A stretch of 64,000 nucleotides of DNA from Candidatus Omnitrophota bacterium (lineage in GTDB: Bacteria; Omnitrophota; Gorgyraeia; Gygaellales; Profunditerraquicolaceae), in contig CAINQO010000080.1 in the NCBI GenBank assembly GCA_903852325.1, forward strand, positions 2,732 through 66,731. Reading direction: 5' to 3'. Shown piece by piece: positions 1,030 through 57,218 of this stretch (positions are counted from its first letter, which is position 1; each line of letters opens with the position of its first letter). The position numbers and the translations under genes were made by a program. The notes beneath the pieces are model-generated. The model saw only the letters and a program-made list of their open reading frames with translations. It was not told the DNA's origin and made no database searches.

Positions 1030-1952
1030 GCGAATATTTCTTGAAGGATGTCCAGGTTGGTCTTTTCGTTCACCCGCAGGATCTCTTCTTCGGTAAAACC
1101 CTGTGCCGCCGGATGCCGGGGATGGTCCAGCCGGGAAACCCATCCTTTGATCCTGCCGGAAAAACAAGGGGCGGAATAATCCCCGGTAACATCCAAACCG
1201 ATAATCTCCAGGTTCTCCCGCAGCACCCTGAGCATAGTGAGCAGCTGCTCTAAACGCAGGCACCCTTCCTCCCAGTTGGTCAACGCGAAATCTTTGGTCA
1301 GGCAATCTTTATCGATGGAAATATAAACTCTGCGCTCAGGCAGGCGTTTAATCAATCCCAGGGTAAACTGCGCTAAACCGGTGTTTTCCAGCTGGCTCCA
1401 GGAAATTTGTGTGGAAAAAAAATTCTTTTTTGCGGCAAGGGAATAATTCGAAGCGACCTTGCGCAGATAAACCCGGCTTGGGGAATGGCGGTAAGGATAA
1501 ATCTCCAGGCGGTTATGGGCTAAAGCGCCCAGGCCGGCGGATTGCAGCGCCGGACCGTTTAAGTCCTGCGACCCCATTCCGATCAAAATACATTTAGTGA
1601 TATTTTTATTTTTCAAGGCCTGAGTGACCCAGGAACCGCAGCCAAAACGCGGGGGCAGCCCGTCCCAGTCAGGATGGAAATCGAACACCACCAAAGTCGC
1701 CGGAGAACCGATCCGGCTGGTTAATATTTCGCTGATGTGGTGAAAATCCCCGGAGCCGGTAAAAGTGGGGTGATTTTCCGCGGGGGGAATGAGCGAGGAA
1801 ATTTTATGGCGCAAGGAGGCGGAACAGTAAAGCCGGGCGCTGCCGGAAAACCCGGTCAGGTCGGTAATCCGGGAGGAATAACAAGACAGAAGCTGTTTTT
1901 GCCGGATAACGCTATTATCAAAATTCAAAATACGGATAACCTTATCCAGCAT
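1026..1952 (-). CDS. arginase/agmatinase (ureohydrolase) family protein
   Basis: Motifs GSGDFHH (GGDHS-like), FDFHPD (DAHxD-like) and SIDKDCL (SxDxDxxDP-like) lie in the order seen in binuclear-Mn ureohydrolases. Confidence 0.5.
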   Translation of the reverse strand: MLDKVIRILNFDNSVIRQKQLLSCYSSRITDLTGFSGSARLYCSASLRHKISSLIPPAENHPTFTGSGDFHHISEILTSRIGSPATLVVFDFHPDWDGLPPRFGCGSWVTQALKNKNITKCILIGMGSQDLNGPALQSAGLGALAHNRLEIYPYRHSPSRVYLRKVASNYSLAAKKNFFSTQISWSQLENTGLAQFTLGLIKRLPERRVYISIDKDCLTKDFALTNWEEGCLRLEQLLTMLRVLRENLEIIGLDVTGDYSAPCFSGRIKGWVSRLDHPRHPAAQGFTEEEILRVNEKTNLDILQEIFA

Positions 1953-1960
1953 ATACCGCT

Positions 1961-3373
1961 TTAGGACTTCTTCAATGCTCTAATCAGCGCCTCTTCGAAA
2001 AGCTCCACTCCCAGGTTGATCTCTTCTTCCGTGATATAAAATGACGGGGCAATGGTAAAAACGTTTTTATAATACCCGCCCACGTCCAGGATCAGGCCGC
2101 GGCGCTTTCCGCCGGTATTAAGCGTCCCGCTTAATCCCAGGTTAGTGATCTTATCGGTCAGCTCTTTATTCGGAGTATAGCCGTCCTTTTCGCAAATCTC
2201 GATCCTTAAAGCCAGGCCCAGGCCGTCCACATCCCCGATCTGCGGATATTTTTTCTGCAGTTTTTTAAGCTGGGAGACGAAATACTGGCCTTTACGCGGA
2301 ATGGAGGTCGAAAAATCCGATTCCTCGATCAGCTTCATTACCTCCAGGCCGCAAGCGGTGCCCAGGGGATTACTGGAAAATGTCGCATGGGTAGAGCCCG
2401 GAGGAAAAACAGCGGGAGAAATTAATTTTTCTTTGGCCCAAACCCCGCTGATCGGGTTTAGCCCGTTGGTCAAAGCCTTACCGAAAACCAGGATATCCGG
2501 GGTAATGTTGAAATGCTCAATCGCCCAGAATTTTCCGGTACGATAGAAACCCATCTGAATTTCATCGTCGATAAAAAGGATCCCGTACCGGTCAAGGATC
2601 TCCTTTAGCCCGGCGTAATATTCCTGAGGCGGCACGATGTAGCCGCCGGTTCCCTGGATGGCTTCCGCGTAAAAAGCGGCAAATTCACACTTATTGTTCT
2701 TTTTATTGACTACCGAATAATACTCTGTTTCAAAAAGCCTTTCAAACTGCTTGAGGCAATAAAGGTCGCAAAAATCCCTTTTTTTGTCATAGGGGCAGCG
2801 GAAACAATAAGGATAAGGGACGAACATCGCCCGGTCCCCGAAATGCCCGAAACGCTCCCGGTAACGGAAGCTGGAAGTGATTGCCGAGGCCCCCAGAGTG
2901 CGGCCGTGATAACCGCCCATAAAAGCAAAGACCAGGCTCCGGCCGGAATAATTCCGCACTAATTTCAAGGAATCTTCCAGGGCGCTGGAACCGCCGACAT
3001 TAAAATGGATCCTTCCTTTTTCTTCGAAAGTGCGTTCATTTTTTTGCGCCAATTTTGCGGCCAGCTCGATCTTCTCCCGATGAAGATACTGGCAGGCCAG
3101 CTGGGGCAGGATATCGATCTGGTTCTTTAAAGCGGTATTGAGCCGTTCATTCCGGTAGCCGAAATTTGCCGCCGAATACCACATCTGCAAATCCAGGTAT
3201 TCCGTCCCCTGGCGGTCATAAAGATAGCTGCCTTGGGAGCTTTGGAATATGTTTAATTTATCGGCATAATGCACCGTATCCCCCCAGGAGCAGTATTTTG
3301 CCTCCAGTTCCAGCAGTTCATCCTGGTTAAAAACTTTTTTGTTTTTTTCTTTAGTCATTTGTTTTGGGCTCAC
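1961..3373 (-). CDS. class III (omega) PLP-dependent aminotransferase
   Basis: GGYHGRT is present, and DDEIQMGFYRTGKFWA...FGKAL matches the class-III lysine-PLP region. Confidence 0.8.
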   Translation of the reverse strand: MSPKQMTKEKNKKVFNQDELLELEAKYCSWGDTVHYADKLNIFQSSQGSYLYDRQGTEYLDLQMWYSAANFGYRNERLNTALKNQIDILPQLACQYLHREKIELAAKLAQKNERTFEEKGRIHFNVGGSSALEDSLKLVRNYSGRSLVFAFMGGYHGRTLGASAITSSFRYRERFGHFGDRAMFVPYPYCFRCPYDKKRDFCDLYCLKQFERLFETEYYSVVNKKNNKCEFAAFYAEAIQGTGGYIVPPQEYYAGLKEILDRYGILFIDDEIQMGFYRTGKFWAIEHFNITPDILVFGKALTNGLNPISGVWAKEKLISPAVFPPGSTHATFSSNPLGTACGLEVMKLIEESDFSTSIPRKGQYFVSQLKKLQKKYPQIGDVDGLGLALRIEICEKDGYTPNKELTDKITNLGLSGTLNTGGKRRGLILDVGGYYKNVFTIAPSFYITEEEINLGVELFEEALIRALKKS

Positions 3374-4041
3374 TGTAGTTTCCTTTTTAAATAGGTGTTA
3401 ACATCCCTTAAATTATGAAACCCCATATAATCCAACTTGCTTTCCTTAAGGTGCCGCAGGAGATGGTCCTTGGCAAAGATCACGTGCGCGTGTTTGGCCG
3501 GGCAGATATCCGATTCACCGTCTCCGACATAAATAATTATAGAATCCTTGGGTGATTTTTCCAGCAGATTTTTTGTCTTGCAGTGCGCGCAAATCTGGCA
3601 ATCCTTATTTTTATACGGGTAATCGGTAACGATTTTTTCCCGGGAGAAACTCAGCTTATTGGCGTAAACCTTCAGCTTATTTATGCCGTTCATTTTTAAC
3701 ACCCGGTTAAGGATATAATCGTAATTATCGCTCAATACCAGCATTTTTACTTTTTTAGCCAGCAAAAATTTATAGAGCGGTTTAAAATAAGCATCCAGTT
3801 TTATTTTCGGCAGATAAGCGTCTAAGGTCTTTTTGTTTAAATCCATCCCCCGCAGCTGCCCCTCCAGGCAGGTCTTGGAGCCGATCCTCCCGCTTTTCCA
3901 TCTTTTTTCCAGTTCCACCCATCGGTCATCCCGGGAAAAAAGCAAAAGCATGTTATCAAACACATCGCAGGTAGCGATAGTGTTGTCAAAATCAAAAAAG
4001 ACGATGCATTTTTTAGGATTAAATTTATTTTCCGGTGTCAT
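3370..4041 (-). CDS. HAD-IB phosphatase, MtnX-like (2-hydroxy-3-keto-5-methylthiopentenyl-1-phosphate phosphatase family)
   Basis: It has an FDFDNTI motif I, a YVGDGESD motif, and a CxxCxxCK cysteine cluster like B. subtilis MtnX. Confidence 0.55.
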   Translation of the reverse strand: MTPENKFNPKKCIVFFDFDNTIATCDVFDNMLLLFSRDDRWVELEKRWKSGRIGSKTCLEGQLRGMDLNKKTLDAYLPKIKLDAYFKPLYKFLLAKKVKMLVLSDNYDYILNRVLKMNGINKLKVYANKLSFSREKIVTDYPYKNKDCQICAHCKTKNLLEKSPKDSIIIYVGDGESDICPAKHAHVIFAKDHLLRHLKESKLDYMGFHNLRDVNTYLKRKLQ

Positions 4042-4266
4042 TTTAATAATTCTTAAGCATCCCTGTCTTAATGGGTTAAATTGCTGGCTAAAATCAACTC
4101 TGGCGATAAACCCGGTTTAGCCTGGGGCTTCTGGCGCGACAAGCCTGCTCTCCCTGGAACCTTCCCGAGTGAATCGAGGGCTTTAGGGTGGTGATCCAAG
4201 CGGCGCTTTTGAACCTAAAGCCTGAAGGCCGGGTTTGGCGCCGTTGAACAATCTAGCGGTTTAATT

Positions 4267-4295
4267 ATTTTAAACCTAACCGCAAATGCTGTCAA
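4267..4295 (-). promoter_or_regulatory. sigma70-type promoter (TTGACA-17 nt-TAAAAT) followed by a ~210-nt untranslated leader before the mtnX-like gene
   Basis: The minus strand reads TTGACA (4295-4290), then gcatttgcggttaggtt (17 nt), then TAAAAT (4272-4267). Confidence 0.45.
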
Positions 4296-4348
4296 TACCA
4301 ATTTAACCCCTGAAACCGGAGCCGAAAGCGCAAAAAACGGGTTTTTTC

Positions 4349-5350
4349 TTAAAAAACCCCCGGCAAATAAGTGCGGCAGGAGACGCACTTATTTTTGGCT
4401 AAGTGGGATTCCGAAATATCAAACCCCTCCCGCTTGATCAAAAGCTTGCGGCACCGGGAACAAAAGGTATCCTGCCCCCACGACCCGAAATTGCCCACGT
4501 AAATGTAATGTAACCCCTGGGCAATCCCGATATCATAAGCCAGCTTTAGCGTGCCCTCCGGAGTACTCTGGTAGTTTTGAAATTTGTAATCCGCGTGAAA
4601 ACGCGAAATGTGCCAGGGGATCTCCCGGCTTACTCCGGCAATAAATTTGGCGATTGCCTCCAGCTCCTCGGGGGCATCATTTTCCCCGGGAATAACCAAA
4701 GTGGTGATCTCCACCCAAACCCCGGCAGCATGCAGCATTTTTATTGCCTCAAGCACCGGAGCCAGCCTGGCGGAACATATCTTTTGATAAGAAGCTTCTT
4801 TAAAGAATTTTAGATCGACATTGGCCGCATCCAGATAGGGGCTAACCTCAGCAATTGCCTCCGGGCTCATATATCCGTTGGTGACGAATATATTGCGCAG
4901 ACCGGATTCCTTGGCCAGCTTAGCTGTTTCTAACGCGAACTCAAAATAGATCGTCGGCTCGGTATAGGTATAAGCGATGCTGCGGCAATTATTCCGGCGG
5001 GCCAGCTCCACCACCTGTTTGGCGGTGAAATCCTCTCCCCCGGGCGGCCCGGAGGAAGCGGCCTGGGAAATCTCCCAATTCTGGCAAAAGCCGCAGCGGA
5101 AATTACATCCTGCGCTGGCGATCGAAAAAGCGGTTGTTCCGGGAAGAAAATGATACAACGGTTTCTTTTCCACCGGATCGATATGGGCCGCCGCGATCTT
5201 GCCGTAATTAAGGGTATAAAGTACCCCGGAGATATTCTGCCTTACCCCGCAAAAACCGGATTTACCCTCCGGAATTTTACAGCCGTGCGCGCAAAGCTTA
5301 CAGTGCACCTTAAGATTATCCAGTTTTTCATAAAGCTGGGCTTCTTTCAT
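4349..5350 (-). CDS. radical SAM enzyme of the AmrS/PFL-activase-like family (CNFRCGFCQNWEISQ cluster)
   Basis: It carries a CxxxCxxC motif of the AmmeMemoRadiSam-type rSAM. The start was moved to the internal ATG at 5350, which forms an ATGA overlap with the stop of the upstream gene. Confidence 0.7.
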   Translation of the reverse strand: MKEAQLYEKLDNLKVHCKLCAHGCKIPEGKSGFCGVRQNISGVLYTLNYGKIAAAHIDPVEKKPLYHFLPGTTAFSIASAGCNFRCGFCQNWEISQAASSGPPGGEDFTAKQVVELARRNNCRSIAYTYTEPTIYFEFALETAKLAKESGLRNIFVTNGYMSPEAIAEVSPYLDAANVDLKFFKEASYQKICSARLAPVLEAIKMLHAAGVWVEITTLVIPGENDAPEELEAIAKFIAGVSREIPWHISRFHADYKFQNYQSTPEGTLKLAYDIGIAQGLHYIYVGNFGSWGQDTFCSRCRKLLIKREGFDISESHLAKNKCVSCRTYLPGVF

Positions 5351-6330
5351 ACGAATAAATGCACAAACTTTTCTTTGGGCAGGCAAAGCACTGCTTGCCC
5401 CTGCTCCGCTACGGTTCCCGCTTGGCGGTAAAGCACCTCGATTTTATCTAATCCGCGCGTATCCGTGTAAGCACCGACAATCTGGGAAGATAAAAAAATA
5501 AGTTCCGGATTAACCGCTCCCCTGGCCAGCGCGGTAGGGCCGGCCAGGTCTTTTTGCGGGCTGAATAAATGATCCCCGGTTCCGGCCAGTTGTTCCAGGA
5601 GATTATTTTCCCCCTGGTCCCTGCCGACTACCAGGCGGGTATTCTCGGCGATGCGAAAGTGCCGGCCGATTTTCAAGAGCTCCAGGTTCTCTAAATTCAA
5701 TTCTTTGTGCTTCAGGAGTTCGATCAACCTTTTGGAAAAACACGGGTCAGTCAACAGGCAGCCTCCGGCGGGCTGGGCAGCGTAAGCGCTTAAGCCCCAC
5801 TCTTTAGCCAGCCGCATCTGCGGGGTGCGTAAACGGCCGTTAAAACCCAGCAGCTTCTCCCGGTTGACCCACCCTTCTTTTTCCGCTAAGCTGGGAGGGA
5901 AAAACTGCGCCGAAAGCGGACGCAGCAGCAAATCCTCCAGCCCGCTTCTTTCCCGGATCAGCCGCAAGGCCTGTTTATTCTGGGACATCGGCCGCTGGCC
6001 GAGCACCTCTCCGGTGACGACAAACTTAGCCCCCCACTCCGCCATCAATTCTTTGGCCCGGCCAAACATCAGGATCTTGCAATCGATACAGGGGTTCATA
6101 TTCGAACCAAACCCATAGCGCGGTTCTTCGATAAGCTTGAGGAACTGCCGCCCCAAGTCTTCCTCCATTATTTTTATACCGATATCCGGGAAACTCTCTT
6201 TAAGATTGATCTTACAGAAAGGGATTTTAAAATGCAGCCCGATCACTTCGCATCCCTGGTCGGAAATAAGCTTGGCGGCCAATAAACTATCCAGGCCTCC
6301 GGAAATCAAAGCTAACGCTCTTATCTTCAT
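5347..6330 (-). CDS. PP-loop ATP pyrophosphatase, ThiI/MnmA-like sulfurtransferase domain without THUMP
   Basis: SGGLDS PP-loop at the N-terminus. EVIGLHF resembles ThiI, NPCIDCK resembles the MnmA cysteine motif, and TGEVLGQRPMSQ resembles ThiI. Confidence 0.5.
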   Translation of the reverse strand: MKIRALALISGGLDSLLAAKLISDQGCEVIGLHFKIPFCKINLKESFPDIGIKIMEEDLGRQFLKLIEEPRYGFGSNMNPCIDCKILMFGRAKELMAEWGAKFVVTGEVLGQRPMSQNKQALRLIRERSGLEDLLLRPLSAQFFPPSLAEKEGWVNREKLLGFNGRLRTPQMRLAKEWGLSAYAAQPAGGCLLTDPCFSKRLIELLKHKELNLENLELLKIGRHFRIAENTRLVVGRDQGENNLLEQLAGTGDHLFSPQKDLAGPTALARGAVNPELIFLSSQIVGAYTDTRGLDKIEVLYRQAGTVAEQGQAVLCLPKEKFVHLFV

Positions 6331-6347
6331 CGAATTTATTTAAAAGG

Positions 6348-7088
6348 TTAACAAGGTAAGAATTTTTTGGCGGCAGCCATTAAGATGATGCCCAGCAAGA
6401 AAGCGGCAAAAGCCAAAGTGGCGCGCTGCTGGTCTTTTTCTTTATGTACTTCCGGGATAAGGTCAGACATCGCGATATAGATAAATCCTCCGGCGGTGAG
6501 CGGCATGATAAATTGGGCGAAGTTTACCATAAGATCGGAAATAAAATAACCCGCCAGCGCCCCGACGATCGCCATCAGCGCGCAAACAAAATTATAAAAT
6601 AAGGCTTTTTTACGGCTAAACCCGCCGAAAATAAGCACTCCGAAATTCCCCAGCTCTTTGGGAATCTCATGCAGGATGATCGCCAGTGTGGTGATCATCC
6701 CCAGCTTAATGGAAATAACAAAACTGGCGGCAATGGCGATACCGTCGATAAAATTGTGGAAGGCTTCCCCGAAAAGGTTGAGGTAGGTAAAAGCGTGGAT
6801 ATGGCAGTCCTTATCGTGGCAATGCCTCCAATGCATATACCTTTCCATCAGGAAAAATATAATGATCCCCAGGATCAGGGAATAAAACACGCTGCTACTG
6901 TTTAATTTTTCGAGCGCTTCCGGAAGGAGATGCAAGAACGCGCTGCCCACAAGTGCCCCGGCGGAAAAACCGATCAGGCCGAACAGGATCTTATGCAGCA
7001 GGTTCTCCCTGATCGCCAGGGTAAAAATGCCGACCAGAGAGATAAGGCTGACTAAAAATGTGCTGGCGAGGATCCAGAGTAAGACCAT
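6348..7088 (-). CDS. ZIP family divalent metal transporter (ZupT-like)
   Basis: Multi-TM protein with a His-rich loop and the HEIPKELGNFGVL / HNFIDGIAIA ZIP signatures. Confidence 0.8.
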   Translation of the reverse strand: MVLLWILASTFLVSLISLVGIFTLAIRENLLHKILFGLIGFSAGALVGSAFLHLLPEALEKLNSSSVFYSLILGIIIFFLMERYMHWRHCHDKDCHIHAFTYLNLFGEAFHNFIDGIAIAASFVISIKLGMITTLAIILHEIPKELGNFGVLIFGGFSRKKALFYNFVCALMAIVGALAGYFISDLMVNFAQFIMPLTAGGFIYIAMSDLIPEVHKEKDQQRATLAFAAFLLGIILMAAAKKFLPC

Positions 7089-7231
7089 CTGTAGGAATTT
7101 AGCCTAAATTAGGTTTTCTGCCTTTATTGGCTTTTTTGGAGCGCCAATTAAGTTTGCCTCTACGTTTTCTTTTTCCCATTTTTTCCTTTCTTAAACCTGC
7201 TGTTTATAGTGTCAAACACCTGTCCCCCGAC

Positions 7232-7876
7232 CTAACTCCGGGGGCTGCTGTAATACTTCTGCGGCACATTTTGAGCGGTAAAATTACCGGCTTCGGACAG
7301 GCAGTCGTAGATCACCTTGCCCATCGGGGTGCCGGCATAATCACTCAACCCCTCCTTAAACACTTTATCCTGGGGGAATCTTGTTTTTTTCCCCGGATTT
7401 TCCACCACCTGGCTTTGAATGTCCCGGCTGCTGACCACTTCAGAGCTGGCCCGATCGATAATCCGCAGGGAAAGCTGCATATTCGCCTTATTTTGGACCT
7501 CCCCCAACAATCCCCCCATAAAACTGCTGGCGCTGCTGCCTCCGCCGGCCAGGCCGGATTTACCTCCGGAGTTTTCCGGTACGAACTCAATGATCCCGAC
7601 ACTGATGATCAAGTCCGCATCCTGAGGGGGAACGATCACAAAACGCCTGGTATTGTCCAGGATATTGACAAAATATTCTTTCAGCGCCTGGCTGACCTGC
7701 GCGTCAAGCCCGGAAGTCTTTACTTCAAAATCGCTAACGGCGATCTTCGCCTGGGGCCCCAGGTAAGGGCCCTGCTCCGCGGCGGAATTTTCATCGGGTT
7801 TATGCGGCGTCGAAGAACAACCGTTTAAAGCTAATAAAAGGCCGGCGAAGATTAATAACCGAAATTTTTTTTTCAT
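7232..7876 (-). CDS. CsgG-family lipoprotein (curli-type secretion channel homologue, short form)
   Basis: Signal peptide with an LNGC lipobox. Collinear similarity to E. coli CsgG: KIAVSDFEVKTSG, ALKEYFVNILDNTRRFVIVP, IISVGIIEFVPENSGGKSG and LSLRIIDRASSEV. Confidence 0.55.
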   Translation of the reverse strand: MKKKFRLLIFAGLLLALNGCSSTPHKPDENSAAEQGPYLGPQAKIAVSDFEVKTSGLDAQVSQALKEYFVNILDNTRRFVIVPPQDADLIISVGIIEFVPENSGGKSGLAGGGSSASSFMGGLLGEVQNKANMQLSLRIIDRASSEVVSSRDIQSQVVENPGKKTRFPQDKVFKEGLSDYAGTPMGKVIYDCLSEAGNFTAQNVPQKYYSSPRS

Positions 7877-7925
7877 AACGTTTTTAATATATTACCTATT
7901 TCACGGACTGTCAAGGGAAACTCCT

Positions 7926-39220: not shown

Positions 39221-39829
39221 TTATTTAAGGTAAGGAGAGACCCCGCTGTAAATACGCTGGGAGATGATTTGATATCCCCGGGCGTTGGGATGGAAAAAAT
39301 CGCTTTTCATTCCCGGGTTAGTGATAATATTCTTTAAAATCTGAGGGATAAACACCGTCTTTTTCTCCTCGGCCAATTTTCTATATTTATCCCGGTAGGA
39401 CTGCATAAAAAATCCCGAGCTGATGTCGACCAGGACCACGATCGCTCCCTTTTGTTGGATCCGGTCGATGATCTGTTCTAAATTTTTAAGGGTGTCGGAT
39501 TCCGGGACCTTCTGCAGAAAATCATTGCCGCCAAACTCCACGATCACCATCCGCGGGTCCTTATCCAGGACATCCGCCTCTATCCTGGCCAGGGCGTCAA
39601 AAGTAGTATCCCCGTCCACCCCGGCGTTGATCACCTCACGGCTCAAAAGCTTGCTTAAACCCGTAGGATAATCCTCCCCTTCATTGGCTCCGTAACCGAA
39701 GGTAATGCTATCCCCGAAACAGATTATATTTGCCCCCTTAGAATGCAAATTGCGGATCTCCGGCTTAGCGCAGCCGCAGAAGATGAGCAAGGGTAAAATG
39801 AATATTAAACTTAATTTAATTTTTTTCAT
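39221..39829 (-). CDS. SGNH/GDSL hydrolase lipoprotein (TesA/arylesterase-like)
   Basis: Lipobox (IFCGC). GDSIT block I and a GGNDF block. Confidence 0.75.
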   Translation of the reverse strand: MKKIKLSLIFILPLLIFCGCAKPEIRNLHSKGANIICFGDSITFGYGANEGEDYPTGLSKLLSREVINAGVDGDTTFDALARIEADVLDKDPRMVIVEFGGNDFLQKVPESDTLKNLEQIIDRIQQKGAIVVLVDISSGFFMQSYRDKYRKLAEEKKTVFIPQILKNIITNPGMKSDFFHPNARGYQIISQRIYSGVSPYLK

Positions 39830-40844
39830 ATTTTAAACGCAGCTGCCCGCAGGCAGCGCTGATATCCTGCCCGCGCTCCCGCCTTAAGGTCACGGTTAAA
39901 CCCGCTTTGGACAAATAGGTTTTAAATGTGTTTATCTGCGCCCTGCCCGGCGGGCTGATTTTTAGCTCCGCCACGGCATTGGCTGGAATTAAATTAATTT
40001 TGGCTAATTTTAGATCTTTAAGCCAGGCGGCTAAACTTTGCGCCGCCGCCAAGTCGGCATTTAAGTCCCGGATCAGAATATATTCAAAGGTGATCTGCCG
40101 GTTGGTTTTAGCGGTATATTCCCGGCAGCATTTCATCAACTCCCCCAGAGGGTATTTATTGTTCACCGGCATCAGCCGGCTGCGCACCTTATCTTGCGCC
40201 GAATGCAGGGAAATAGAAAGCTCGATCTGCAAATCCTCATCCTGCAGCCTTTTAATCCCCGGAATTATCCCGCAGGTGGAAATAGTGATCCTGCGGGCCC
40301 CGATATTAAAACCTTGCGGAGAATTGATCAGCCGCACCGCCTTGAGCACATTGTCGTAATTATCCAGCGGCTCCCCCGTGCCCATGAACACGATATGAGT
40401 CAATTTTCCGCCGGAAGCATTCTTTAAATAGAGCACCTGCTCTAAAATTTCTCCCGCGCTTAAATTACGCTTAAATCCTTTCAGGCCGCTGGCGCAAAAA
40501 TTACAGGCAAACTTGCAGCCCGCCTGAGAGGAAATGCATCCGGTAACTCTGCCCGGCGCCGGAATAATCACCGCTTCCACCCGGTTCTTATCCACCAGCT
40601 CAAAAAGGAATTTGACGGTGCGGTCGGAAGAAACCTGCTTATCCGCCAGGGTTAAACCGGTGATCCTGAATTCCGCGGATAATTTTTCCCGTAAAGTTGC
40701 CGGCAAACTGCTTATCCGGTTAAAATCAAGGGCGCCTTTCTGATAGATCCAGCGGAAGATATCCCGGGCATAATATTTCGGGTTGCCCAGAGAAAACAAT
40801 TTATCCTCCAGCTCCTTTAAACTTAATTCTTTAATATCCTGCAT
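39816..40844 (-). CDS. rlmN: 23S rRNA A2503 / tRNA A37 C2-methyltransferase RlmN (radical SAM)
   Basis: CKFACNFCASG radical-SAM cluster at the typical RlmN position. 342 aa, with RlmN-like N- and C-terminal blocks. Confidence 0.8.
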   Translation of the reverse strand: MQDIKELSLKELEDKLFSLGNPKYYARDIFRWIYQKGALDFNRISSLPATLREKLSAEFRITGLTLADKQVSSDRTVKFLFELVDKNRVEAVIIPAPGRVTGCISSQAGCKFACNFCASGLKGFKRNLSAGEILEQVLYLKNASGGKLTHIVFMGTGEPLDNYDNVLKAVRLINSPQGFNIGARRITISTCGIIPGIKRLQDEDLQIELSISLHSAQDKVRSRLMPVNNKYPLGELMKCCREYTAKTNRQITFEYILIRDLNADLAAAQSLAAWLKDLKLAKINLIPANAVAELKISPPGRAQINTFKTYLSKAGLTVTLRRERGQDISAACGQLRLKYEKN

Positions 40845-44047: not shown

Positions 44048-45046
44048 TTAAACCTTGATTTTTACTTCTCTAAATAAAGCGAACAGCCGAGTAAACGGCA
44101 CATACCATTTGGAAAGCTGTCCTAATTGACCGCTTAATTTCATTTTTCCCTGGGTCACCGCCACAAAAGAATCGAGTTTACCCAAAAATACCTGCTCCCA
44201 AACTGCAGGCGGCGCGCTGATCACAAAAGGGGCATCGGCGTCAAAATCAAGGCTGGCGATCCTGCCTTCTTCGAAATTAAATTTAAAAACGTTGACGCTT
44301 CCATCCAGCTTGATCGCCAGTTTTACGGTCAGCCCCAACGCTTTGCCTTTTTCGGCGATAAATGCATCCCGGTTCACTATATCCACGATCGCCTGGATAT
44401 GCTCCCGGCTGAACATCGTATAAACCGGTTCATCGCGTTTTAAATCATTTTTTAAAGCCGCGTCCAATTCATCCAAAACCTCTTTATCCCACAGCCGGGC
44501 GATGGCCGCGCTTTTGACCGCTTCCTCCAACGCTTCGGTGACCGCTAAAGCGTCTTTAAATTTATCCGCGATCGCCACCGTCCCGTGATTCTTCAACACC
44601 ACCAGGTTATTGGTTTTTAAAGCGGCGATCACCGGCGCGGGGTCGGTTACCGTCGGAGTTTCCTGGGGGATCACCGGGATCTCCCCCAGGTAAAACTTAG
44701 TCTCGAAACTCATCGCTTTAAGGTTTTTAGCTACCGCAAAATATCCGTTAATTAACGGCGGATGGCAGTGCACGACAACTTTGGCGCCGGAGTTTTTATA
44801 AACCAGGCTGTGCAAAGGCAGCTCCGAACTGGGCTTAGTTTCCCCGGAAAATTTACTGTCGGATAAATTTACTTTAACCAGATCGCCTTCCTTTAATTGC
44901 CCTAAAGCCGTGCCGGTAGCGGTGATCAGGATATTTTCCGCATCCAGGCGGCCGCTCAAATTCCCGGAGTTAGCTACCGCCAACCCTGTTTCATAAAGCC
45001 TTTTACCTACCTGAATAATTTCTAACCCCAATTCTTTTTCCGTCAT
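44048..45046 (-). CDS. class II aldolase/adducin-fold protein (MtnB-like dehydratase) fused to a C-terminal SCP2 sterol-carrier-like domain
   Basis: N-terminal GNLSGR...HCHPP metal-ligand pattern of class II aldolases. The C-terminal ~110 aa have an SCP2-like pattern (GKLDSFVAVTQGKMKLSGQL). Confidence 0.55.
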   Translation of the reverse strand: MTEKELGLEIIQVGKRLYETGLAVANSGNLSGRLDAENILITATGTALGQLKEGDLVKVNLSDSKFSGETKPSSELPLHSLVYKNSGAKVVVHCHPPLINGYFAVAKNLKAMSFETKFYLGEIPVIPQETPTVTDPAPVIAALKTNNLVVLKNHGTVAIADKFKDALAVTEALEEAVKSAAIARLWDKEVLDELDAALKNDLKRDEPVYTMFSREHIQAIVDIVNRDAFIAEKGKALGLTVKLAIKLDGSVNVFKFNFEEGRIASLDFDADAPFVISAPPAVWEQVFLGKLDSFVAVTQGKMKLSGQLGQLSKWYVPFTRLFALFREVKIKV

Positions 45047-45961
45047 TTACACTCCCAAATGAATATGCTTGGTAATTAAACACGCCGGCGTAACATCAAA
45101 AGCCGGGTAATAAGCTTTTACTTCTTTAGGGGCTAACCGCACGCCCTGATAAATTTTTAGCTCATCATCCGGCCGGATCTCGATTTGAATCTCCTGGCCG
45201 GTTTTCAATCTGGAAGGCGGAGGGCAAATCACAAAAAACGGGATTTTAAAATATTTCGCCACTACCGCGATCTGATAAGTCCCGATCTTATTGGCAATAT
45301 CCCCGTTTAAAGTCAAATGGTCGGCCCCGACAATGATTTTAGTCACTTTCCCCAGGGAAAGTAAATACGCCACCATATTGTCCGTAATGATCGTTACCTC
45401 AAATCCGGCGCGCATCAATTCCCAGGCAGTCAGCCGGGAACCCTGCAGATAAGGCCGGGTCTCAGTAGCGTAAAAGCTGACTGTCTTACCCTGCTCTTTG
45501 GCAATCTGAGCGATCAAGGGCAACAGGCCGCTGATATTACAGTGAGTAAGGATCACATCCCCGTCGCTAAGCAGCCCGGCGGTTTCTTTGGCCTGCTCAA
45601 TGCGTTTGGCCTTGAGCATCTCTAAAAATCCCAGAATGCTTTTCTCCAGGGGCGCCCCGCTCTTCTCCCATCCCAAAACCATATCGGTAAGGAACTTAAA
45701 GGAAAGGGTCGGCCGGGTAGCGTTGATCGCCGCGGCGACCTGGCTTAAATCTTTCTTCTGCCGCTTGCTCAACAGAAAGGTGTACATCACCAAAAGCACC
45801 TGCCCTACCGCGCGAGTCTTCATTTCTTTGATCGCCCGGCAGGCTTGCAAATAATTCCTGGCCTTTATATAGGTAAGTTTCTGCGGCAATTTCGTTTCAT
45901 CTAAAATATAAAGCGTATTGCCTTTTAACTGTATCGGCCAAAATAAGGGAGAGAATTTCAT
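45047..45961 (-). CDS. eIF-2B-family sugar-phosphate isomerase (methylthioribose-1-phosphate isomerase MtnA-like)
   Basis: GADHLTLNGDIANKIGTY...IPFFVICP signature of the MtnA/eIF2B family. Confidence 0.6.
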   Translation of the reverse strand: MKFSPLFWPIQLKGNTLYILDETKLPQKLTYIKARNYLQACRAIKEMKTRAVGQVLLVMYTFLLSKRQKKDLSQVAAAINATRPTLSFKFLTDMVLGWEKSGAPLEKSILGFLEMLKAKRIEQAKETAGLLSDGDVILTHCNISGLLPLIAQIAKEQGKTVSFYATETRPYLQGSRLTAWELMRAGFEVTIITDNMVAYLLSLGKVTKIIVGADHLTLNGDIANKIGTYQIAVVAKYFKIPFFVICPPPSRLKTGQEIQIEIRPDDELKIYQGVRLAPKEVKAYYPAFDVTPACLITKHIHLGV

Positions 45962-45983
45962 AGTTTTTATATTCCCAATTGTG

Positions 45984-46733
45984 TCACTTTCCTTCTAATT
46001 TTTTAACTAAATCCAGGGCAATTTTAATTAAATTGCCTTCCGCCATATAATACAGCGGATTCATAAAACCCATTTCACCGGTAATCACATTATCACTTAC
46101 CGCTAATATCGAGCCGGCTTTGATATTGTAGGTCTGGCAAATGGTCAGCATCGTGGAAGAGACCATATCCACGGCCAGGGCGCCTTCCTTACGTTTGCCT
46201 TCCACCAGTTCCCGGGTCTCCCGCAATAAAGCGTCCGTAGTCCAGGCCTTACCGCGGTGCACATTTAAACCCATATCTTTAGCAATCTGGAAGAGAAGAT
46301 CAGAAATCTTCTTGTCGCTGATCGTCTTAAAATCCTTATCCACATAATACGGGGTCACTCCGTCGCCGCGGATCACTTCATCGACGACAAATAAATCCCC
46401 CACCTTAATATTTTCATCCATTGCCCCGCAGGTGCCCACGCGGATAATGTTCTGGATCCCCGCGTTGCACATGACTTCGGTGGTGATCGAGGTGTCAGTG
46501 GAAAATCTCCCGCCGTTAATCCCGGTGACCTTAATCCCCTCAAAGGTGCCAGTGTACATGGTGTATTCCATAAAAGAAAAATTCTTGATCGGGTTTTCCA
46601 GCTTTTTCATCAAAACATCCAGCCGGTCCCGGGGGCCGGGCACGATCGCGTACTTACCTACATCCTGAGGCCTTAACTGCACCATCGCGGTTAAATCTTT
46701 TCCCGTTAAATGAACATCTTTCTGCATTTGCAT
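45984..46733 (-). CDS. PNP/UDP family-1 nucleoside phosphorylase (purine/MTA phosphorylase-like)
   Basis: RVGTCGAM phosphate-binding block and the C-terminal AVDMVSSTML block of the DeoD/Udp/MtnP fold. 249 aa. Confidence 0.6.
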   Translation of the reverse strand: MQMQKDVHLTGKDLTAMVQLRPQDVGKYAIVPGPRDRLDVLMKKLENPIKNFSFMEYTMYTGTFEGIKVTGINGGRFSTDTSITTEVMCNAGIQNIIRVGTCGAMDENIKVGDLFVVDEVIRGDGVTPYYVDKDFKTISDKKISDLLFQIAKDMGLNVHRGKAWTTDALLRETRELVEGKRKEGALAVDMVSSTMLTICQTYNIKAGSILAVSDNVITGEMGFMNPLYYMAEGNLIKIALDLVKKLEGK

Positions 46734-52443: not shown

Positions 52444-53904
52444 TTATATTTGCACTTCCCCCTTGGTCGCGGCGGCTTCCCATTTGCCTACCCCGGCCAT
52501 GACATCCTGGAAACAGAGCTTGGCCAAAGGATCGAAGTTGCTTTCCATGATCCGGTTGATCCTTCCGGGCTTGGAGAAAAACTCGCGCATGCACCAGGAA
52601 CCCAACCTGCCCAGGTCCTCGGTAGTCAGGTGGTCCGTGGGGATTACCGGATGCAGAAAATCCCACTGGCTGAAATCCACCTTTTTCGGGTCGATCCAGT
52701 GTTTCTTTAAAGCGATCCTCCACATCGGAGAATTCGGGGCGGGGGTCACGTAGCCGACCCACAACACATCCGGATCCACCTGGTCGGTAAATTCAAAACG
52801 CTGCTTAACGATCTCTTCGGTATCATAGTCAAACCCCATCATGATGTCAGCGACGATGGCGATGTCATTTCTCCTAAACATGGCGATGGTCTGCTTGATC
52901 TGGTCGATGGTAATACCTTTAGCGATCCTCTTTAACTCCGACTGCGTGGTGACTTCGATACCGAAAACCCCCATAAATAAACCCTGCTCCTTCATCAACG
53001 GCAGGATGGATTCGCAATTGACCCAGTCGATTGCCCGGCCCAAAGAAACCCATTTGATCGGGTTATTCGAAGCTTTTTTCAACTCGCAAAACTTTTGCAC
53101 TCTTTTGGGATCGACATTAAAATTATCATCCTGGATGACAACCACCTTAACCCCGTATTTGCGGTGCAGCAGGTTAAGTTCTTCCATTACCCTTTCCGGG
53201 GATTTAGCGCGCCATTTCAAAAAATCCGAAGGAGAGCGCGGGTCAAACTGGTCCCACTCATAACAAAAAGTACAGGCGGAAGGGCAGCCGCGGGAAGTAA
53301 CCATATCCACGAACGGCTTCCAATAAGTATGCCCGACATATTTATCCATCGGGAAAAGATCGTAGGCCGGAAGAGGAAGCTTGTCCAAATCTTCCATCAA
53401 CGGCTTATGCGGCCCCATGACGATCTGCCCGTCGATGCGGCTGGTGACCCCGCCCACATCTTTCAGTGGCGTATTTTTATCGATCGCCTCGATCAGGTCT
53501 CCGAATGATTCCTCTTCCCCCATGACCACAAAATCAACCGCGGGAATTTCTTCCAGGGTCGGCACCGGCATCGCCGAATACCATAAACCGCCCAGGATGA
53601 TCTTTGTCCTCGGCAGCGCTTTTTTGATCCCGATCGCCGCGTCCTTAAAATGCCGCAGCACCCCGTATCCGCCGTAACCGTGGAGCTGTTCACCCATCAC
53701 GACAATATCTGGGTTTTTCTCTTTGACCTGCTCGATCAACTGCTCCATAGGAATCTGGTCGGCTTTACCGTCGATAACCGCGACATCCTCATACCCTCTT
53801 TCCCGCACATAAGCCGCCCAATGGGCGTACAGCTGGTTTGGAGAACGGTGGATTCCATGGGTCGCCCAGGCACCTACTTTCGGCATTACAAATAAGATTT
53901 TCAT
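52444..53904 (-). CDS. cobalamin-binding (class B) radical SAM enzyme
   Basis: N-terminal B12-binding-like Rossmann region (MKILFVMPKVG...) and an SRGCPSACTFC CxxxCxxC cluster. 486 aa. Confidence 0.75.
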   Translation of the reverse strand: MKILFVMPKVGAWATHGIHRSPNQLYAHWAAYVRERGYEDVAVIDGKADQIPMEQLIEQVKEKNPDIVVMGEQLHGYGGYGVLRHFKDAAIGIKKALPRTKIILGGLWYSAMPVPTLEEIPAVDFVVMGEEESFGDLIEAIDKNTPLKDVGGVTSRIDGQIVMGPHKPLMEDLDKLPLPAYDLFPMDKYVGHTYWKPFVDMVTSRGCPSACTFCYEWDQFDPRSPSDFLKWRAKSPERVMEELNLLHRKYGVKVVVIQDDNFNVDPKRVQKFCELKKASNNPIKWVSLGRAIDWVNCESILPLMKEQGLFMGVFGIEVTTQSELKRIAKGITIDQIKQTIAMFRRNDIAIVADIMMGFDYDTEEIVKQRFEFTDQVDPDVLWVGYVTPAPNSPMWRIALKKHWIDPKKVDFSQWDFLHPVIPTDHLTTEDLGRLGSWCMREFFSKPGRINRIMESNFDPLAKLCFQDVMAGVGKWEAAATKGEVQI

Positions 53905-56496: not shown

Positions 56497-56622
56497 AATC
56501 CTAAATTCTAAATCCTAAACAAATCCAAAATCCAAAACTCAAATTTTCTAAACCGCCGTTTTGGGTTTTAAATTTAGAGTTTTGGGTTTGTTTAGAGTTT
56601 CGTGTTTAGAGTTTAGGGTTTT
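56497..56622. repeat. long AT-rich imperfect inverted repeat (~50-nt arms built from TCCTAAA/TCCAAAA-like units) between the tandem-domain gene and KS-alpha
   Basis: Left arm: ctaaattctaaatcctaaacaaatccaaaatccaaaactcaaattt. Right arm: aaatttagagttttgggtttgtttagagtttcgtgtttagagtttagg. The central loop contains ccgccg. Confidence 0.5.
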
Positions 56623-57218
56623 GTTTTATCCTCCTCTACTCTTTTGACTTTAAAAATAATATTGCCACCATCAGGGCAGGTCACCGTATCGATGGAATTC
56701 GGATCAGGCATGAAGAAAAACTTTGCCCCGAAATTCAGGGCGAACAGCGCCGGGAAAGCGGTGTGAAAAGCCGCCCCGCAGAATCCCGGGATGCATTTTA
56801 ACCCCTGGGTTTCCCATTTGTCCCCGACTTTATAGCCAAAAGCGCATTTGCCTTTGGCCTGGACCACCTCTAAAACCATTTTTTTAGGGTTAGGCCCCTT
56901 ATGATTGGGGTCGCGCGGCAATGCTTCCACTTTGCCTTGCTTATCCAGGATTTCGGCTTTAAATTCCAGCTTTCCTCCGTCCGGGCAGGTCACCAAAAGC
57001 GAACGCTGGTTGTCCCGGAACCCGAATTTTGCGCCGAAGCTTAAGGCGTAGGCAACCGGAAAAAGCGCGTGCGCCAGGCCGAGGCAAAAATGCTTGGGCC
57101 CGTGGGTGAAGTCTTCTAAAATGATCTCGTCCCCGATCTTGTAACCGTGGTAACATTCACCCATTACCTGGGTCACCGTAAGTTTTAGCCGCGGGAAGGG
57201 GGTTTTTACTTCATCCAT
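56613..57218 (-). CDS. protein made of two tandem ~95-aa Cys/His-containing domains (TIGR04076-like)
   Basis: The blocks G(E/K)C..GYK.GD, F(C/H)..A(F/L)..(AL)F.L.FGAKF and VTCPDGG..F recur in both halves. Confidence 0.4.
   Translation of the reverse strand: MDEVKTPFPRLKLTVTQVMGECYHGYKIGDEIILEDFTHGPKHFCLGLAHALFPVAYALSFGAKFGFRDNQRSLLVTCPDGGKLEFKAEILDKQGKVEALPRDPNHKGPNPKKMVLEVVQAKGKCAFGYKVGDKWETQGLKCIPGFCGAAFHTAFPALFALNFGAKFFFMPDPNSIDTVTCPDGGNIIFKVKRVEEDKTKP

What the first reader, a model, noticed from the sequence alone, without database searches (positions are those of the whole stretch)
4349..6330. Radical SAM enzyme coupled by an ATGA overlap to a THUMP-less ThiI/MnmA-like PP-loop ATPase
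The PP-loop gene (SGGLDS, NPCIDCK, GEVLGQRP) ends in a TGA that overlaps the ATG of an AmrS/PFL-activase-like radical SAM gene (CNFRCGFCQN). This implies translational coupling. No AMMECR1 or MEMO1 partner is present nearby, so this is not a complete AmmeMemoRadiSam system. A PP-loop adenylating sulfurtransferase paired with a radical SAM enzyme suggests a thiolation or thiolation-linked modification pathway, for example of a tRNA or a cofactor.
Basis: partly seen in the sequence, partly recalled or inferred. Interest (0 to 1): 0.5.

Follow-up and report, generated by a model that had tools for sequence, protein, structure and literature searches.

The report
tRNA thiolase paired with radical-SAM gene
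Two ordinary-looking iron-sulfur enzyme genes, a predicted tRNA-thiolating enzyme and a radical SAM enzyme of unknown function, overlap by four bases in one group of Omnitrophota bacteria; this gives a modest, testable hint that the radical SAM enzyme acts on RNA.

Summary
On the minus strand, a 327-aa PP-loop gene (5347..6330) ends in a TGA that overlaps the ATG of a 333-aa radical SAM gene (4349..5350).

The radical SAM protein is a full member of the AmmeMemoRadiSam family (TIGR04337, 344 bits against a cut-off of 220).

The PP-loop protein is not truncated. Its homologs are about 326 aa. This is the 'ThiI+DUF814' family, which Burroughs and Aravind (2014) predicted to be an alternative tRNA 4-thiouridine synthase.

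- **Where the pairing holds:** in 26 related loci of one clade, labelled Omnitrophota where named, at 45-100% identity. Twenty of them keep the ATGA overlap even though the flanking genes differ.
- **Where it does not:** in 46 loci from other clades of the family. There the neighbours are MnmA, CysK, Thi4, NifS/NifU and QueH.
- **Missing partners:** no AMMECR1 or Memo was found in the window. None of the annotated neighbours of the other AmrS genes examined is one either.

So this is a lineage-specific operon of two known families. A functional link between them is plausible but unproven. Interest is moderate to low.

The parts
5347..6330 (-). Gene for a 327-aa ThiI-type PP-loop ATPase with a C-terminal NFACT-R domain (the ThiI+DUF814 family). 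Predicted tRNA sulfurtransferase.
   Evidence: ORF. Pfam ThiI, tRNA_Me_trans and NFACT-R_2. Homologs are about 326 aa. AF2 model has pLDDT 94. Foldseek matches MnmA, ThiI and LarE with the N-terminal part and RqcH, FBPS and CCDC25 NFACT-R with the C-terminal part.
5914..6321 (-). PP-loop (adenine nucleotide alpha-hydrolase) domain, residues 4-139. It includes SGGLDS (6286..6303) and the CxxC motif Cys81/Cys84 (6079..6090).
   Evidence: Pfam PF02568 E=7.8e-10. S10, G12-S15, C81 and C84 are invariant in a 32-sequence alignment at 35-60% identity.
5818..5838 (-). GRLRTPQ loop, residues 165-171. This is the GRxRxxQ motif specific to the ThiI+DUF814 family.
   Evidence: R168 and Q171 are invariant; G165 and R166 are at least 90% conserved. 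The motif is described in PMC4075521.
5758..5760 (-). Cys191 (GGCLLTD), the third cysteine of a CxxC + C set. Putative [4Fe-4S] ligand.
   Evidence: Invariant. [quoted passage not shown] Cluster binding here is inferred, not tested.
5368..5667 (-). NFACT-R_2 domain, residues 222-321. Predicted RNA/tRNA-binding module that takes the place of THUMP.
   Evidence: PF18297 61.6 bits against a cut-off of 26.9. Structural matches to the FBPS C-terminus 5h3w, RqcH in ribosome-tRNA complexes 7aqc and 8s1u, and CCDC25 7eof.
5347..5350 (-). ATGA junction: the stop TGA of the PP-loop gene overlaps the start ATG of the radical SAM gene.
   Evidence: Sequence. The same overlap is present in 20 of 26 paired loci.
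4349..5350 (-). Gene for a 333-aa AmmeMemoRadiSam-family radical SAM enzyme (AmrS).
   Evidence: TIGR04337 343.9 bits against a cut-off of 220. All activase, MoaA and QueE models fall far below their cut-offs. An identical protein, P0121, occurs on 15 contigs.
5084..5107 (-). CNFRCGFC, residues 82-89: the radical SAM CX3CX2C cluster motif.
   Evidence: C82, C86 and C89 are invariant across 11 AmrS proteins at 36-75% identity.
5249..5302 (-). N-terminal CX2CX3CX9C set (Cys17, 20, 24, 34) of AmrS. Putative auxiliary metal or cluster site.
   Evidence: All four cysteines are invariant. Their function is not known.
4376..4462 (-). C-terminal CX2C...CX2C set (Cys297, 300, 322, 325) of AmrS, resembling a zinc ribbon.
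   Evidence: All four cysteines are invariant.
4339..4359 (-). Terminator-like hairpin GGGTTTTTTAAGAAAAAACCC followed by GTTTTTTG. It overlaps the AmrS stop codon and is the likely end of the transcription unit.
   Evidence: Consensus scan; sequence. This is a pattern match only.
6348..7088 (-). ZIP-family (ZupT-like) metal transporter gene. Its stop is 17 nt upstream of the PP-loop ATG, so it is probably in the same operon.
   Evidence: ORF and spacing. Weak NCBIfam ZupT match; Pfam Zip on the orthologs. Present upstream of the pair in 19 loci.
7232..7876 (-). CsgG-like lipoprotein gene. Possibly the first gene of the unit, with a promoter-like site at 7886..7914.
   Evidence: Pfam CsgG. TTGACA-17-TATATT on the minus strand (pattern match only).
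4267..4295 (-). Promoter-like TTGACA-17-TAAAAT downstream of the terminator. It marks the start of the next unit, an MtnX-like HAD phosphatase plus a class III aminotransferase.
   Evidence: It bounds the cassette and is not part of it.

Best explanation
The two genes form the 3' end of an operon (CsgG-like, ZIP transporter, PP-loop gene, AmrS) in an Omnitrophota bacterium.

**Gene 1: a THUMP-less ThiI-type tRNA sulfurtransferase.** Its NFACT-R domain docks the tRNA. The PP-loop (SGGLDS) uses ATP to adenylate a uridine, most likely U8. Sulfur then replaces the activated oxygen, delivered through a [4Fe-4S] cluster held by Cys81, Cys84 and Cys191. The product would be 4-thiouridine.

**Gene 2: a standard AmmeMemoRadiSam-family radical SAM enzyme.** It is translated from the same mRNA, probably by termination-reinitiation at the ATGA. 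The two Fe-S enzymes would then be made together in fixed proportion.

**The link between them.** Both flanks of the pair change across the clade while the overlap is kept. From this I infer that the radical SAM enzyme acts in the same RNA-modification context, either on the thiolated tRNA or on a neighbouring position. This fits the long-standing prediction that the AMMECR1/Memo/radical SAM genes perform an RNA base modification.

**Status of each step**
- Shown: the gene identities, domain architecture, overlap, and clade-wide conservation.
- Inferred from family knowledge: tRNA thiolation and the Fe-S mechanism.
- Hypothesis: the shared substrate.
For: - **Identity of the genes:**
- **Literature on the PP-loop family:** PMC4075521 describes ThiI+DUF814. 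It keeps the ThiI catalytic residues, is almost mutually exclusive with THUMP-ThiI, and was predicted to make s4U. PMC9825150 shows that the CXXC + C motif binds an essential [4Fe-4S] cluster in rhodanese-less U8 sulfurases.
- **Support for tRNA and sulfur chemistry from relatives:** in other clades the same gene sits beside MnmA, a LarE-like PP-loop protein, CysK, HcyBio and NIL-ferredoxin. In another lineage it lies between ApbC/DUF59 and QueH, NifS and NifU.
- **Coupling:** AmrS lies within 1 kb downstream in 26 loci (PP-loop identity 45-100%). The ATGA overlap is kept in 20 of them.
- **Changing flanks:** the upstream neighbour varies between ZIP, CsgG, a PLP enzyme and others. The downstream neighbour varies between MtnX-like HAD, ThiM/ThiE, a CitMHS transporter and a P-type ATPase.
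- **Operon boundary:** a terminator-like hairpin sits at the AmrS stop codon.
- **RNA-modification prediction for the AMMECR1/radical SAM/dioxygenase genes:** PMC2034487.
Against: - No member of the ThiI-NFACT-R family or of AmrS has a demonstrated activity in the literature I could search.
- The pairing is absent from 46 loci of other clades that have at least 1.1 kb of downstream sequence. It is also absent from L030, which has Omnitrophota-type upstream synteny.
- In close relatives the whole 15-kb block is syntenic, so part of the conservation is inheritance.
- In three loci the genes are 311-771 nt apart. In two of these (L015, L048) an unrelated membrane-anchored ORF sits between them.
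- A second lineage has AmrS about 3.5 kb upstream of the ThiI-NFACT-R gene start. This looks like juxtaposition. AmrS keeps its ancestral MacB/FtsX neighbour there, and an Rrf2-headed Fe-S operon follows it.
- TusA, the neighbour predicted for this family, is not in the window.
Confidence: 0.45

Rival explanations
1. Co-expression without a shared pathway. The PP-loop enzyme thiolates tRNA. AmrS does its own, unrelated job together with AMMECR1/Memo genes encoded elsewhere in the genome. The two genes are kept in one operon with a ZIP metal transporter because they share regulation or Fe-S and metal demand, and because the arrangement arose once in an Omnitrophota ancestor.
For: - The pairing is limited to one clade.
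- Relatives show strong general synteny.
- 4-base overlaps are common in this window.
- AmrS has unrelated neighbours in Zixibacteria, LCP-89 and other lineages.
- The ThiI-NFACT-R family has other, sulfur-related neighbours elsewhere.
- An ORF is inserted between the two genes in L015 and L048.
Against: The ATGA junction survives down to 45% identity while both flanks are replaced several times. This is more than drift alone would usually preserve.
Confidence: 0.35
2. A sulfur pathway for a small molecule, such as thiamine thiazole or another cofactor, rather than tRNA. The ThiI-like enzyme would adenylate and thiolate a metabolite, and AmrS would carry out a radical step on it.
For: - ThiM and/or ThiE directly follow AmrS in L012, L016, L021 and L023.
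- Thi4 lies near the ThiI-NFACT-R gene in 9 loci of other clades.
- LarE-type PP-loop enzymes do thiolate a cofactor, and LarE is among the structural matches.
Against: - The C-terminal domain is an RNA-binding NFACT-R module.
- Neighbours in other clades include the tRNA enzymes MnmA and QueH.
- The window has no thiamine genes next to the pair.
- No TPP riboswitch was found in the window or in 8 paired loci.
Confidence: 0.1
3. AmrS acts on the PP-loop protein itself, as an activase or maturase that introduces a radical-dependent post-translational change.
For: AmrS is distantly related to glycyl-radical activases. Translational coupling is typical of enzyme-maturase pairs.
Against: - Every activase model scores far below its cut-off.
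- The PP-loop protein has no glycyl-radical-like motif or extra domain.
- Its invariant residues are the same in paired and unpaired clades.
- Most family members function without an adjacent AmrS.
Confidence: 0.05
4. The PP-loop gene is an ordinary full-length ThiI, MnmA or QueC that looks truncated because of a frame error.
For: None, beyond weak sub-threshold HMM matches.
Against: - There are only 17 nt to the upstream gene.
- Homologs across at least 900 clusters (E <= 1e-30) are typically about 325-350 aa.
- ThiI scores 37.6 against a cut-off of 264.5, and MnmA 24 against 284.
- The full-length AF2 model has pLDDT 94.
Confidence: 0.01

Closest known systems
ThiI+DUF814 (ThiI-NFACT-R) proteins of Burroughs & Aravind 2014 (PMC4075521)
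   Same: The architecture is the same: a ThiI-like PP-loop followed by NFACT-R_2, with no THUMP and no rhodanese. The same conserved residues are present: SGGxDS, CxxC plus an internal Cys, and GRxRxxQ. NCBI labels the orthologs 'tRNA 4-thiouridine(8) synthase ThiI'.
   Different: The only conserved neighbour reported for the family was TusA (sometimes with IscS/IscU). Here there is no TusA, and the gene overlaps an AmrS radical SAM gene. That association was not reported in that paper.
Canonical ThiI/TtuI, including the [4Fe-4S]-dependent rhodanese-less class (PMC9825150; PDB 4kr6, 2c5s)
   Same: The PP-loop catalytic domain matches (Foldseek 4kr6, 22% identity). It has a CXXC + C cysteine set like the cluster-dependent class.
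   Different: The N-terminal ferredoxin-like and THUMP domains are missing, and the RNA-binding module is C-terminal NFACT-R. The protein scores far below the TIGR00342 cut-off.
AmmeMemoRadiSam system (NCBIfam TIGR04335 AMMECR1-like, TIGR04336 Memo-like, TIGR04337 radical SAM)
   Same: The radical SAM protein passes TIGR04337. It keeps all three invariant cysteine groups of the family.
   Different: No AMMECR1 or Memo gene was found in the 64-kb window, and none of the annotated neighbours in the other AmrS loci is one. The gene is instead coupled to a tRNA-thiolase-type gene. Whether AMMECR1 and Memo exist elsewhere in the genome could not be tested.
MnmA (tRNA 2-thiouridine-34 synthase)
   Same: The PP-loop fold matches; MnmA gives the best PDB sequence hit (9hln) and the top Foldseek hit (2hma).
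   Different: It lacks the PRC-barrel and beta-barrel domains of MnmA. It scores 24 against a cut-off of 284. A true MnmA is a separate gene next to this family in other clades.
Pyruvate formate-lyase activating enzyme and other glycyl-radical activases
   Same: AmrS shares the radical SAM core. The only PDB sequence hit is 3c8f.
   Different: Scores are 63-70 bits against cut-offs of 232-250. AmrS has extra N- and C-terminal cysteine motifs, and no glycyl-radical enzyme is nearby.

Membership tests
ThiI+DUF814 (ThiI-NFACT-R) | N-terminal ThiI-like PP-loop domain with SGGxDS | tested here: met
   PF02568 covers residues 4-139. SGGLDS is at 10-15 and is invariant or nearly invariant in the family alignment.
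ThiI+DUF814 (ThiI-NFACT-R) | C-terminal NFACT-R (DUF814-type) domain | tested here: met
   PF18297 scores 61.6 bits against a cut-off of 26.9. Structural matches to RqcH, FBPS and CCDC25.
ThiI+DUF814 (ThiI-NFACT-R) | CxxC motif plus internal cysteine, and the GRxRxxQ loop | tested here: met
   C81, C84, C191, R168 and Q171 are invariant; G165 and R166 are at least 90% conserved. The motifs are those listed in PMC4075521.
ThiI+DUF814 (ThiI-NFACT-R) | No THUMP and no rhodanese domain | tested here: met
   Pfam and NCBIfam show neither. The 327 aa are fully accounted for by two domains.
ThiI+DUF814 (ThiI-NFACT-R) | Neighbourhood with TusA (and IscS/IscU in some lineages) | tested here: not met
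   No CPxP-type TusA ORF was found in the window. TusA-like, NifS and NifU neighbours were seen only in other clades. This is a contextual feature, not a defining one.
ThiI+DUF814 (ThiI-NFACT-R) | Mutual exclusion with THUMP-ThiI in the genome; s4U-forming activity | not testable with these tools
   This needs the whole genome and an experiment.
Canonical ThiI (TIGR00342) | THUMP domain and a score above the curated cut-off | tested here: not met
   37.6 bits against a cut-off of 264.5. Only model positions 175-312 match.
MnmA (TIGR00420 / NF001138) | Full-length match including the central and C-terminal barrel domains | tested here: not met
   About 24 bits against cut-offs of 237-284. Only the first 110-120 or so residues match.
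AmmeMemoRadiSam radical SAM enzyme (TIGR04337) | Score above the curated cut-off over the full length | tested here: met
   343.9 bits against 220. Residues 5-333 align to model positions 2-333 of 349.
AmmeMemoRadiSam radical SAM enzyme (TIGR04337) | CX3CX2C plus the conserved N-terminal and C-terminal cysteine groups | tested here: met
   All 11 cysteines are invariant across 11 proteins at 36-75% identity.
AmmeMemoRadiSam system (three-gene cassette) | AMMECR1-like and Memo-like genes adjacent to or fused with the radical SAM gene | tested here: not met
   - No GCIG or PHAG motif lies in a plausible ORF of the window or of the first 96 loci.
- Pfam scans of 31 of the roughly 60 window ORFs show neither family.
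- All recurrent immediate neighbours of the pair are annotated as other families.
- The remaining window ORFs were read by eye only.
AmmeMemoRadiSam system (three-gene cassette) | Co-occurrence of the three genes in the same genome | not testable with these tools
Glycyl-radical enzyme activases | Score above the curated cut-off; partner glycyl-radical enzyme | tested here: not met
   Best scores are 69.9 against 250.2 (YjjW type) and 63 against 231.75 (PflA). No glycyl-radical enzyme is in the window.

The most novel reading that the evidence does not exclude
In Omnitrophota the AmrS radical SAM enzyme has become the dedicated partner of the ThiI-NFACT-R tRNA thiolase. Together they would make a further-modified thionucleoside, or a radical-dependent modification next to s4U, on tRNA. 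That would identify RNA as the substrate class of the AMMECR1/MEMO1/radical SAM system, whose biochemical function is unknown although it is conserved from archaea to humans.
Probability: 0.15. Interest if true: 0.75.

Novelty: new variant of a known kind. Interest (0 to 1): 0.35.

Why it matters
AMMECR1 and MEMO1 are conserved from archaea to humans and are linked to human disease. Neither the reaction they catalyse nor that of their prokaryotic radical SAM partner is known. The ThiI-NFACT-R family is also only a prediction.

A conserved, overlapping operon that joins the two offers a cheap experiment. Express one or both genes in an E. coli thiI mutant and compare the tRNA nucleosides. That could confirm the alternative s4U synthase and test whether AmrS acts on RNA.

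If the pairing is only co-regulation, the locus is routine annotation.

Tried and rejected
- **Frame error or missing THUMP:** rejected.
- **Ordinary ThiI, MnmA or QueC:** rejected on curated cut-offs.
- **Glycyl-radical activase:** rejected.
- **Solved structures:** no close PDB relative exists for either protein by sequence.
- **Fusion proteins as a clue:** long family members carry Fmt, HAD or TatC, and none carries a radical SAM domain. They may be gene-call fusions.
- **Genome scan:** the back-translated patterns were too clade-specific. Only 12 loci came back, labelled Omnitrophota, Planctomycetes-type or Candidatus Undivivens. I repeated the scan on metagenomes with a diverse alignment.
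- **Independent second association:** AmrS lies about 3.5 kb upstream of the ThiI-NFACT-R gene in L088, L097, L098 and L102. I first read this as independent support. I downgraded it because AmrS keeps the MacB/FtsX neighbour seen in Zixibacteria, and an Rrf2-headed Fe-S operon simply follows it.
- **Thiamine idea:** no TPP riboswitch was found in the window or in 8 paired loci.
- **TusA:** none in the window, and only one TusA-like neighbour among 96 loci.
- **AMMECR1/Memo seed sequences:** I looked for them in contexts of distant AmrS genes, for a rigorous tblastn of the window. None of the seven contexts contained them.
- **Burroughs et al. 2019 (JBC) on Memo contexts:** not held in the library. 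What I say about it rests on memory only.
Full report
**The observation.** Both genes lie on the minus strand. The PP-loop ORF runs from the ATG at 6330 to a TGA at 5349-5347, giving 327 aa. The mechanical ORF list starts the radical SAM ORF at a TTG (5386). Every homolog, however, starts at the MKEA... methionine, which is the ATG at 5350-5348. That gives 333 aa and a TAA at 4351-4349. The junction reads ...ttattcgtATGAaagaa, so the ATGA overlap at 5347..5350 is real. All the quoted motifs are present. The upstream ZIP-transporter gene ends 17 nt before the PP-loop ATG, which leaves no room for a THUMP domain. All 120 listed homologs are 295-353 aa, mostly 326. The JGI call for the identical protein (P0001, 320 aa) merely uses a later start.

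**What the two proteins are.** The radical SAM protein scores 343.9 bits on NCBIfam TIGR04337, 'AmmeMemoRadiSam system radical SAM enzyme', against a cut-off of 220. It falls far below the cut-offs of all glycyl-radical activase, MoaA, QueE and viperin models. An alignment with AmrS proteins from other lineages, at 36-75% identity to the window protein, shows three invariant cysteine groups:
- CX2CX3CX9C at residues 17-34;
- the radical SAM CX3CX2C at residues 82-89;
- CX2C...CX2C at residues 297-325.

The PP-loop protein has a ThiI-like PP-loop domain (residues 4-139). It fails the curated models for ThiI (37.6 against 264.5) and MnmA (24 against 284). An AlphaFold2 model built on a 32-sequence alignment is confident (pLDDT 94.2, pTM 0.89). 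Foldseek matches its N-terminal part to MnmA, ThiI (4kr6, 22% identity), LarE and TtuA. It matches the C-terminal part to NFACT-R domains: the FBPS C-terminus 5h3w, RqcH in ribosome-tRNA complexes 7aqc and 8s1u, and CCDC25 7eof.

**This is a described family.** Burroughs and Aravind (2014, PMC4075521) defined 'ThiI+DUF814' proteins. They noted the following:
- the proteins lack THUMP and rhodanese;
- they keep the PP-loop residues, the CxxC motif and the internal cysteine;
- they carry GRxRxxQ in an elaborated loop;
- they are almost mutually exclusive with THUMP-ThiI;
- their only conserved neighbour is TusA.

On this basis the authors predicted an alternative tRNA 4-thiouridylation route. 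In my diverse alignment (35-60% identity), C81, C84, C191, R168, Q171 and most PP-loop residues are invariant, and R166 is at least 90% conserved. The exhaustive search finds 2304 clusters (50% identity) at E <= 0.001 and 901 at E <= 1e-30, typically 325-350 aa. [quoted passage not shown] Cluster binding here is an inference. I found no experimental paper on this family or on AmrS in the held library.

**Is the pairing conserved?** NCBI-labelled homologs are from Candidatus Omnitrophota. I gathered three sets of loci:
- contig look-ups;
- a genome scan, which returned only clade-specific loci;
- a metagenome scan seeded with a diverse alignment.

Together these gave 96 loci that carry a family member. 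AmrS lies within 1 kb downstream in 26 of them, where PP-loop identity to the window is 45-100%. It is absent from 46 loci that have at least 1.1 kb of downstream sequence (identity 42-50%). Another 23 loci are too short to judge. On a neighbour-joining tree the paired loci form essentially one clade, plus two members of a neighbouring group.

Exact junction analysis shows the following:
- the ATGA overlap is kept in 20 of 26 paired loci, including ones at 45-56% identity;
- three loci have gaps of 12-86 nt;
- three have gaps of 311-771 nt, and in two of these (L015, L048) a 235-249-aa membrane-anchored ORF with no family match sits between the genes.

In close relatives the whole 15-kb block is syntenic, so inheritance explains part of the conservation. 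Across the clade, however, the flanks change. The upstream neighbour varies between ZIP, CsgG, a PLP enzyme and others. The downstream neighbour varies between MtnX-like HAD plus aminotransferase, ThiM/ThiE, a CitMHS transporter and a P-type ATPase. The pair is therefore more stable than its surroundings. L030 has the Omnitrophota-type upstream genes but no AmrS.

**Context of each family elsewhere.** In other clades the ThiI-NFACT-R gene lies in sulfur and tRNA clusters:
- CysK, HcyBio, NIL-ferredoxin, MnmA, a LarE-like PP-loop protein, then ThiI-NFACT-R, followed by a BATS-type radical SAM gene or Thi4 and DUF6775;
- Rrf2 regulators are frequent neighbours;
- one TusA-like and one Nfu-like neighbour were seen.

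These contexts support a sulfur-transfer role with a tRNA connection.

A second lineage has the order MacB/FtsX, AmrS, Rrf2, ApbC, DUF59, ThiI-NFACT-R, QueH, NifS, NifU. I first took this as independent support for the pairing. Related AmrS genes in Zixibacteria, LCP-89 and other lineages keep the MacB/FtsX neighbour or a different downstream set, with no ThiI gene nearby. The arrangement therefore looks like a juxtaposition of two operons.

None of these AmrS contexts contains AMMECR1 or Memo within 6-7 kb. A stand-alone AmrS is thus common. The window itself shows no AMMECR1 or Memo, by motif or by Pfam on 31 of its roughly 60 ORFs. I read the other ORFs by eye as housekeeping genes. Whether the genome encodes AMMECR1 and Memo elsewhere could not be tested.

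**Transcription signals.** These are pattern matches only. A hairpin, GGGTTTTTTAAGAAAAAACCC followed by a T-run, overlaps the AmrS stop at 4339..4359. A TTGACA-17-TAAAAT site at 4267..4295 precedes the next unit. Another promoter-like site at 7886..7914 precedes the CsgG-like gene. The likely unit is CsgG-like, ZIP, PP-loop gene, AmrS.

**Interpretation.** Three things are shown:
- the two genes are members of known families;
- they are co-oriented and overlapping;
- this arrangement is an ancestral, well-kept trait of one clade, labelled Omnitrophota where named.

From family knowledge I infer that gene 1 thiolates tRNA, probably U8. ATP-dependent adenylation would activate the uridine, and a cluster-bound sulfur would replace the oxygen. 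The NFACT-R domain would bind the tRNA.

My hypothesis is that AmrS works in the same RNA-modification context. [quoted passage not shown] From memory only, a 2019 paper from the same group also linked Memo contexts to nucleotide-base modification.

The main rival is plain co-expression of two Fe-S enzymes, together with a metal transporter, and it is nearly as likely. A thiamine or cofactor role is a minor rival. ThiM/ThiE follow the pair in four loci, and Thi4 neighbours the family elsewhere. No TPP riboswitch was found, and the RNA-binding domain argues against a small-molecule substrate.

**Verdict.** The locus is a lineage-specific variant context for two known but uncharacterised families. 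It does not reveal a new kind of system. It offers a modest, testable lead on the substrate of the AmmeMemoRadiSam radical SAM enzyme.

Noticed in passing
window 44048..46733 (-): Three consecutive genes: a PNP_UDP_1 phosphorylase, an IF-2B/MtnA-like isomerase and a class II aldolase. From my own knowledge this resembles the 'DHAP shunt' that salvages 5'-deoxyadenosine and MTA, the by-products of radical SAM enzymes. The window holds at least three radical SAM genes: AmrS, RlmN at 39816..40844, and a B12-binding radical SAM gene at 52444..53904.
   Followed up: partly
L035, L037, L043, L045, L047 (about 1000-7200 in each): In other clades the ThiI-NFACT-R gene sits in a conserved sulfur cluster. 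The order is CysK, HcyBio (COG1900), NIL-ferredoxin, MnmA, a LarE-like PP-loop protein, ThiI-NFACT-R, then a BATS-type radical SAM gene or Thi4 with DUF6775. Thi4 lies near the gene in 9 loci.
   Followed up: partly
L012 and L016 8025..9449; L021; L023: In one sub-clade of the paired loci, hydroxyethylthiazole kinase (ThiM) and/or thiamine-phosphate synthase (ThiE) follow AmrS directly. No TPP riboswitch was detected.
   Followed up: partly
L015 7052..7759; L048 6026..6775: A 235-249-aa ORF with an N-terminal membrane anchor is inserted between the PP-loop gene and AmrS in two related loci. It has no Pfam or NCBIfam match.
   Followed up: partly
L088, L097, L098, L102: An Fe-S/tRNA-modification cluster headed by Rrf2: ApbC/Mrp, DUF59, ThiI-NFACT-R, QueH, NifS, NifU. 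An AmrS gene lies just upstream of it.
   Followed up: yes
proteins P0271, P0311, P0362, P0331: Some family members are longer. One carries a C-terminal methionyl-tRNA formyltransferase, two carry an N-terminal HAD hydrolase, and one carries TatC. These could be real fusions or merged gene calls.
   Followed up: no
window 56613..57218 (-): A 201-aa protein that looks like an internal duplication of a Cys- and Gly-rich unit, judged by eye. It has no Pfam match. It lies between two beta-ketoacyl-synthase-like genes and a gene I read by eye as ketopantoate-reductase-like; neither of those readings was checked.
   Followed up: no
window 1961..4041 (-): An MtnX-like HAD-IB phosphatase and a class III aminotransferase overlap by 4 bases, immediately downstream of the cassette. 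They are 80-92% identical in relatives (aminotransferase 81-92%), much more conserved than the PP-loop and AmrS pair.
   Followed up: no
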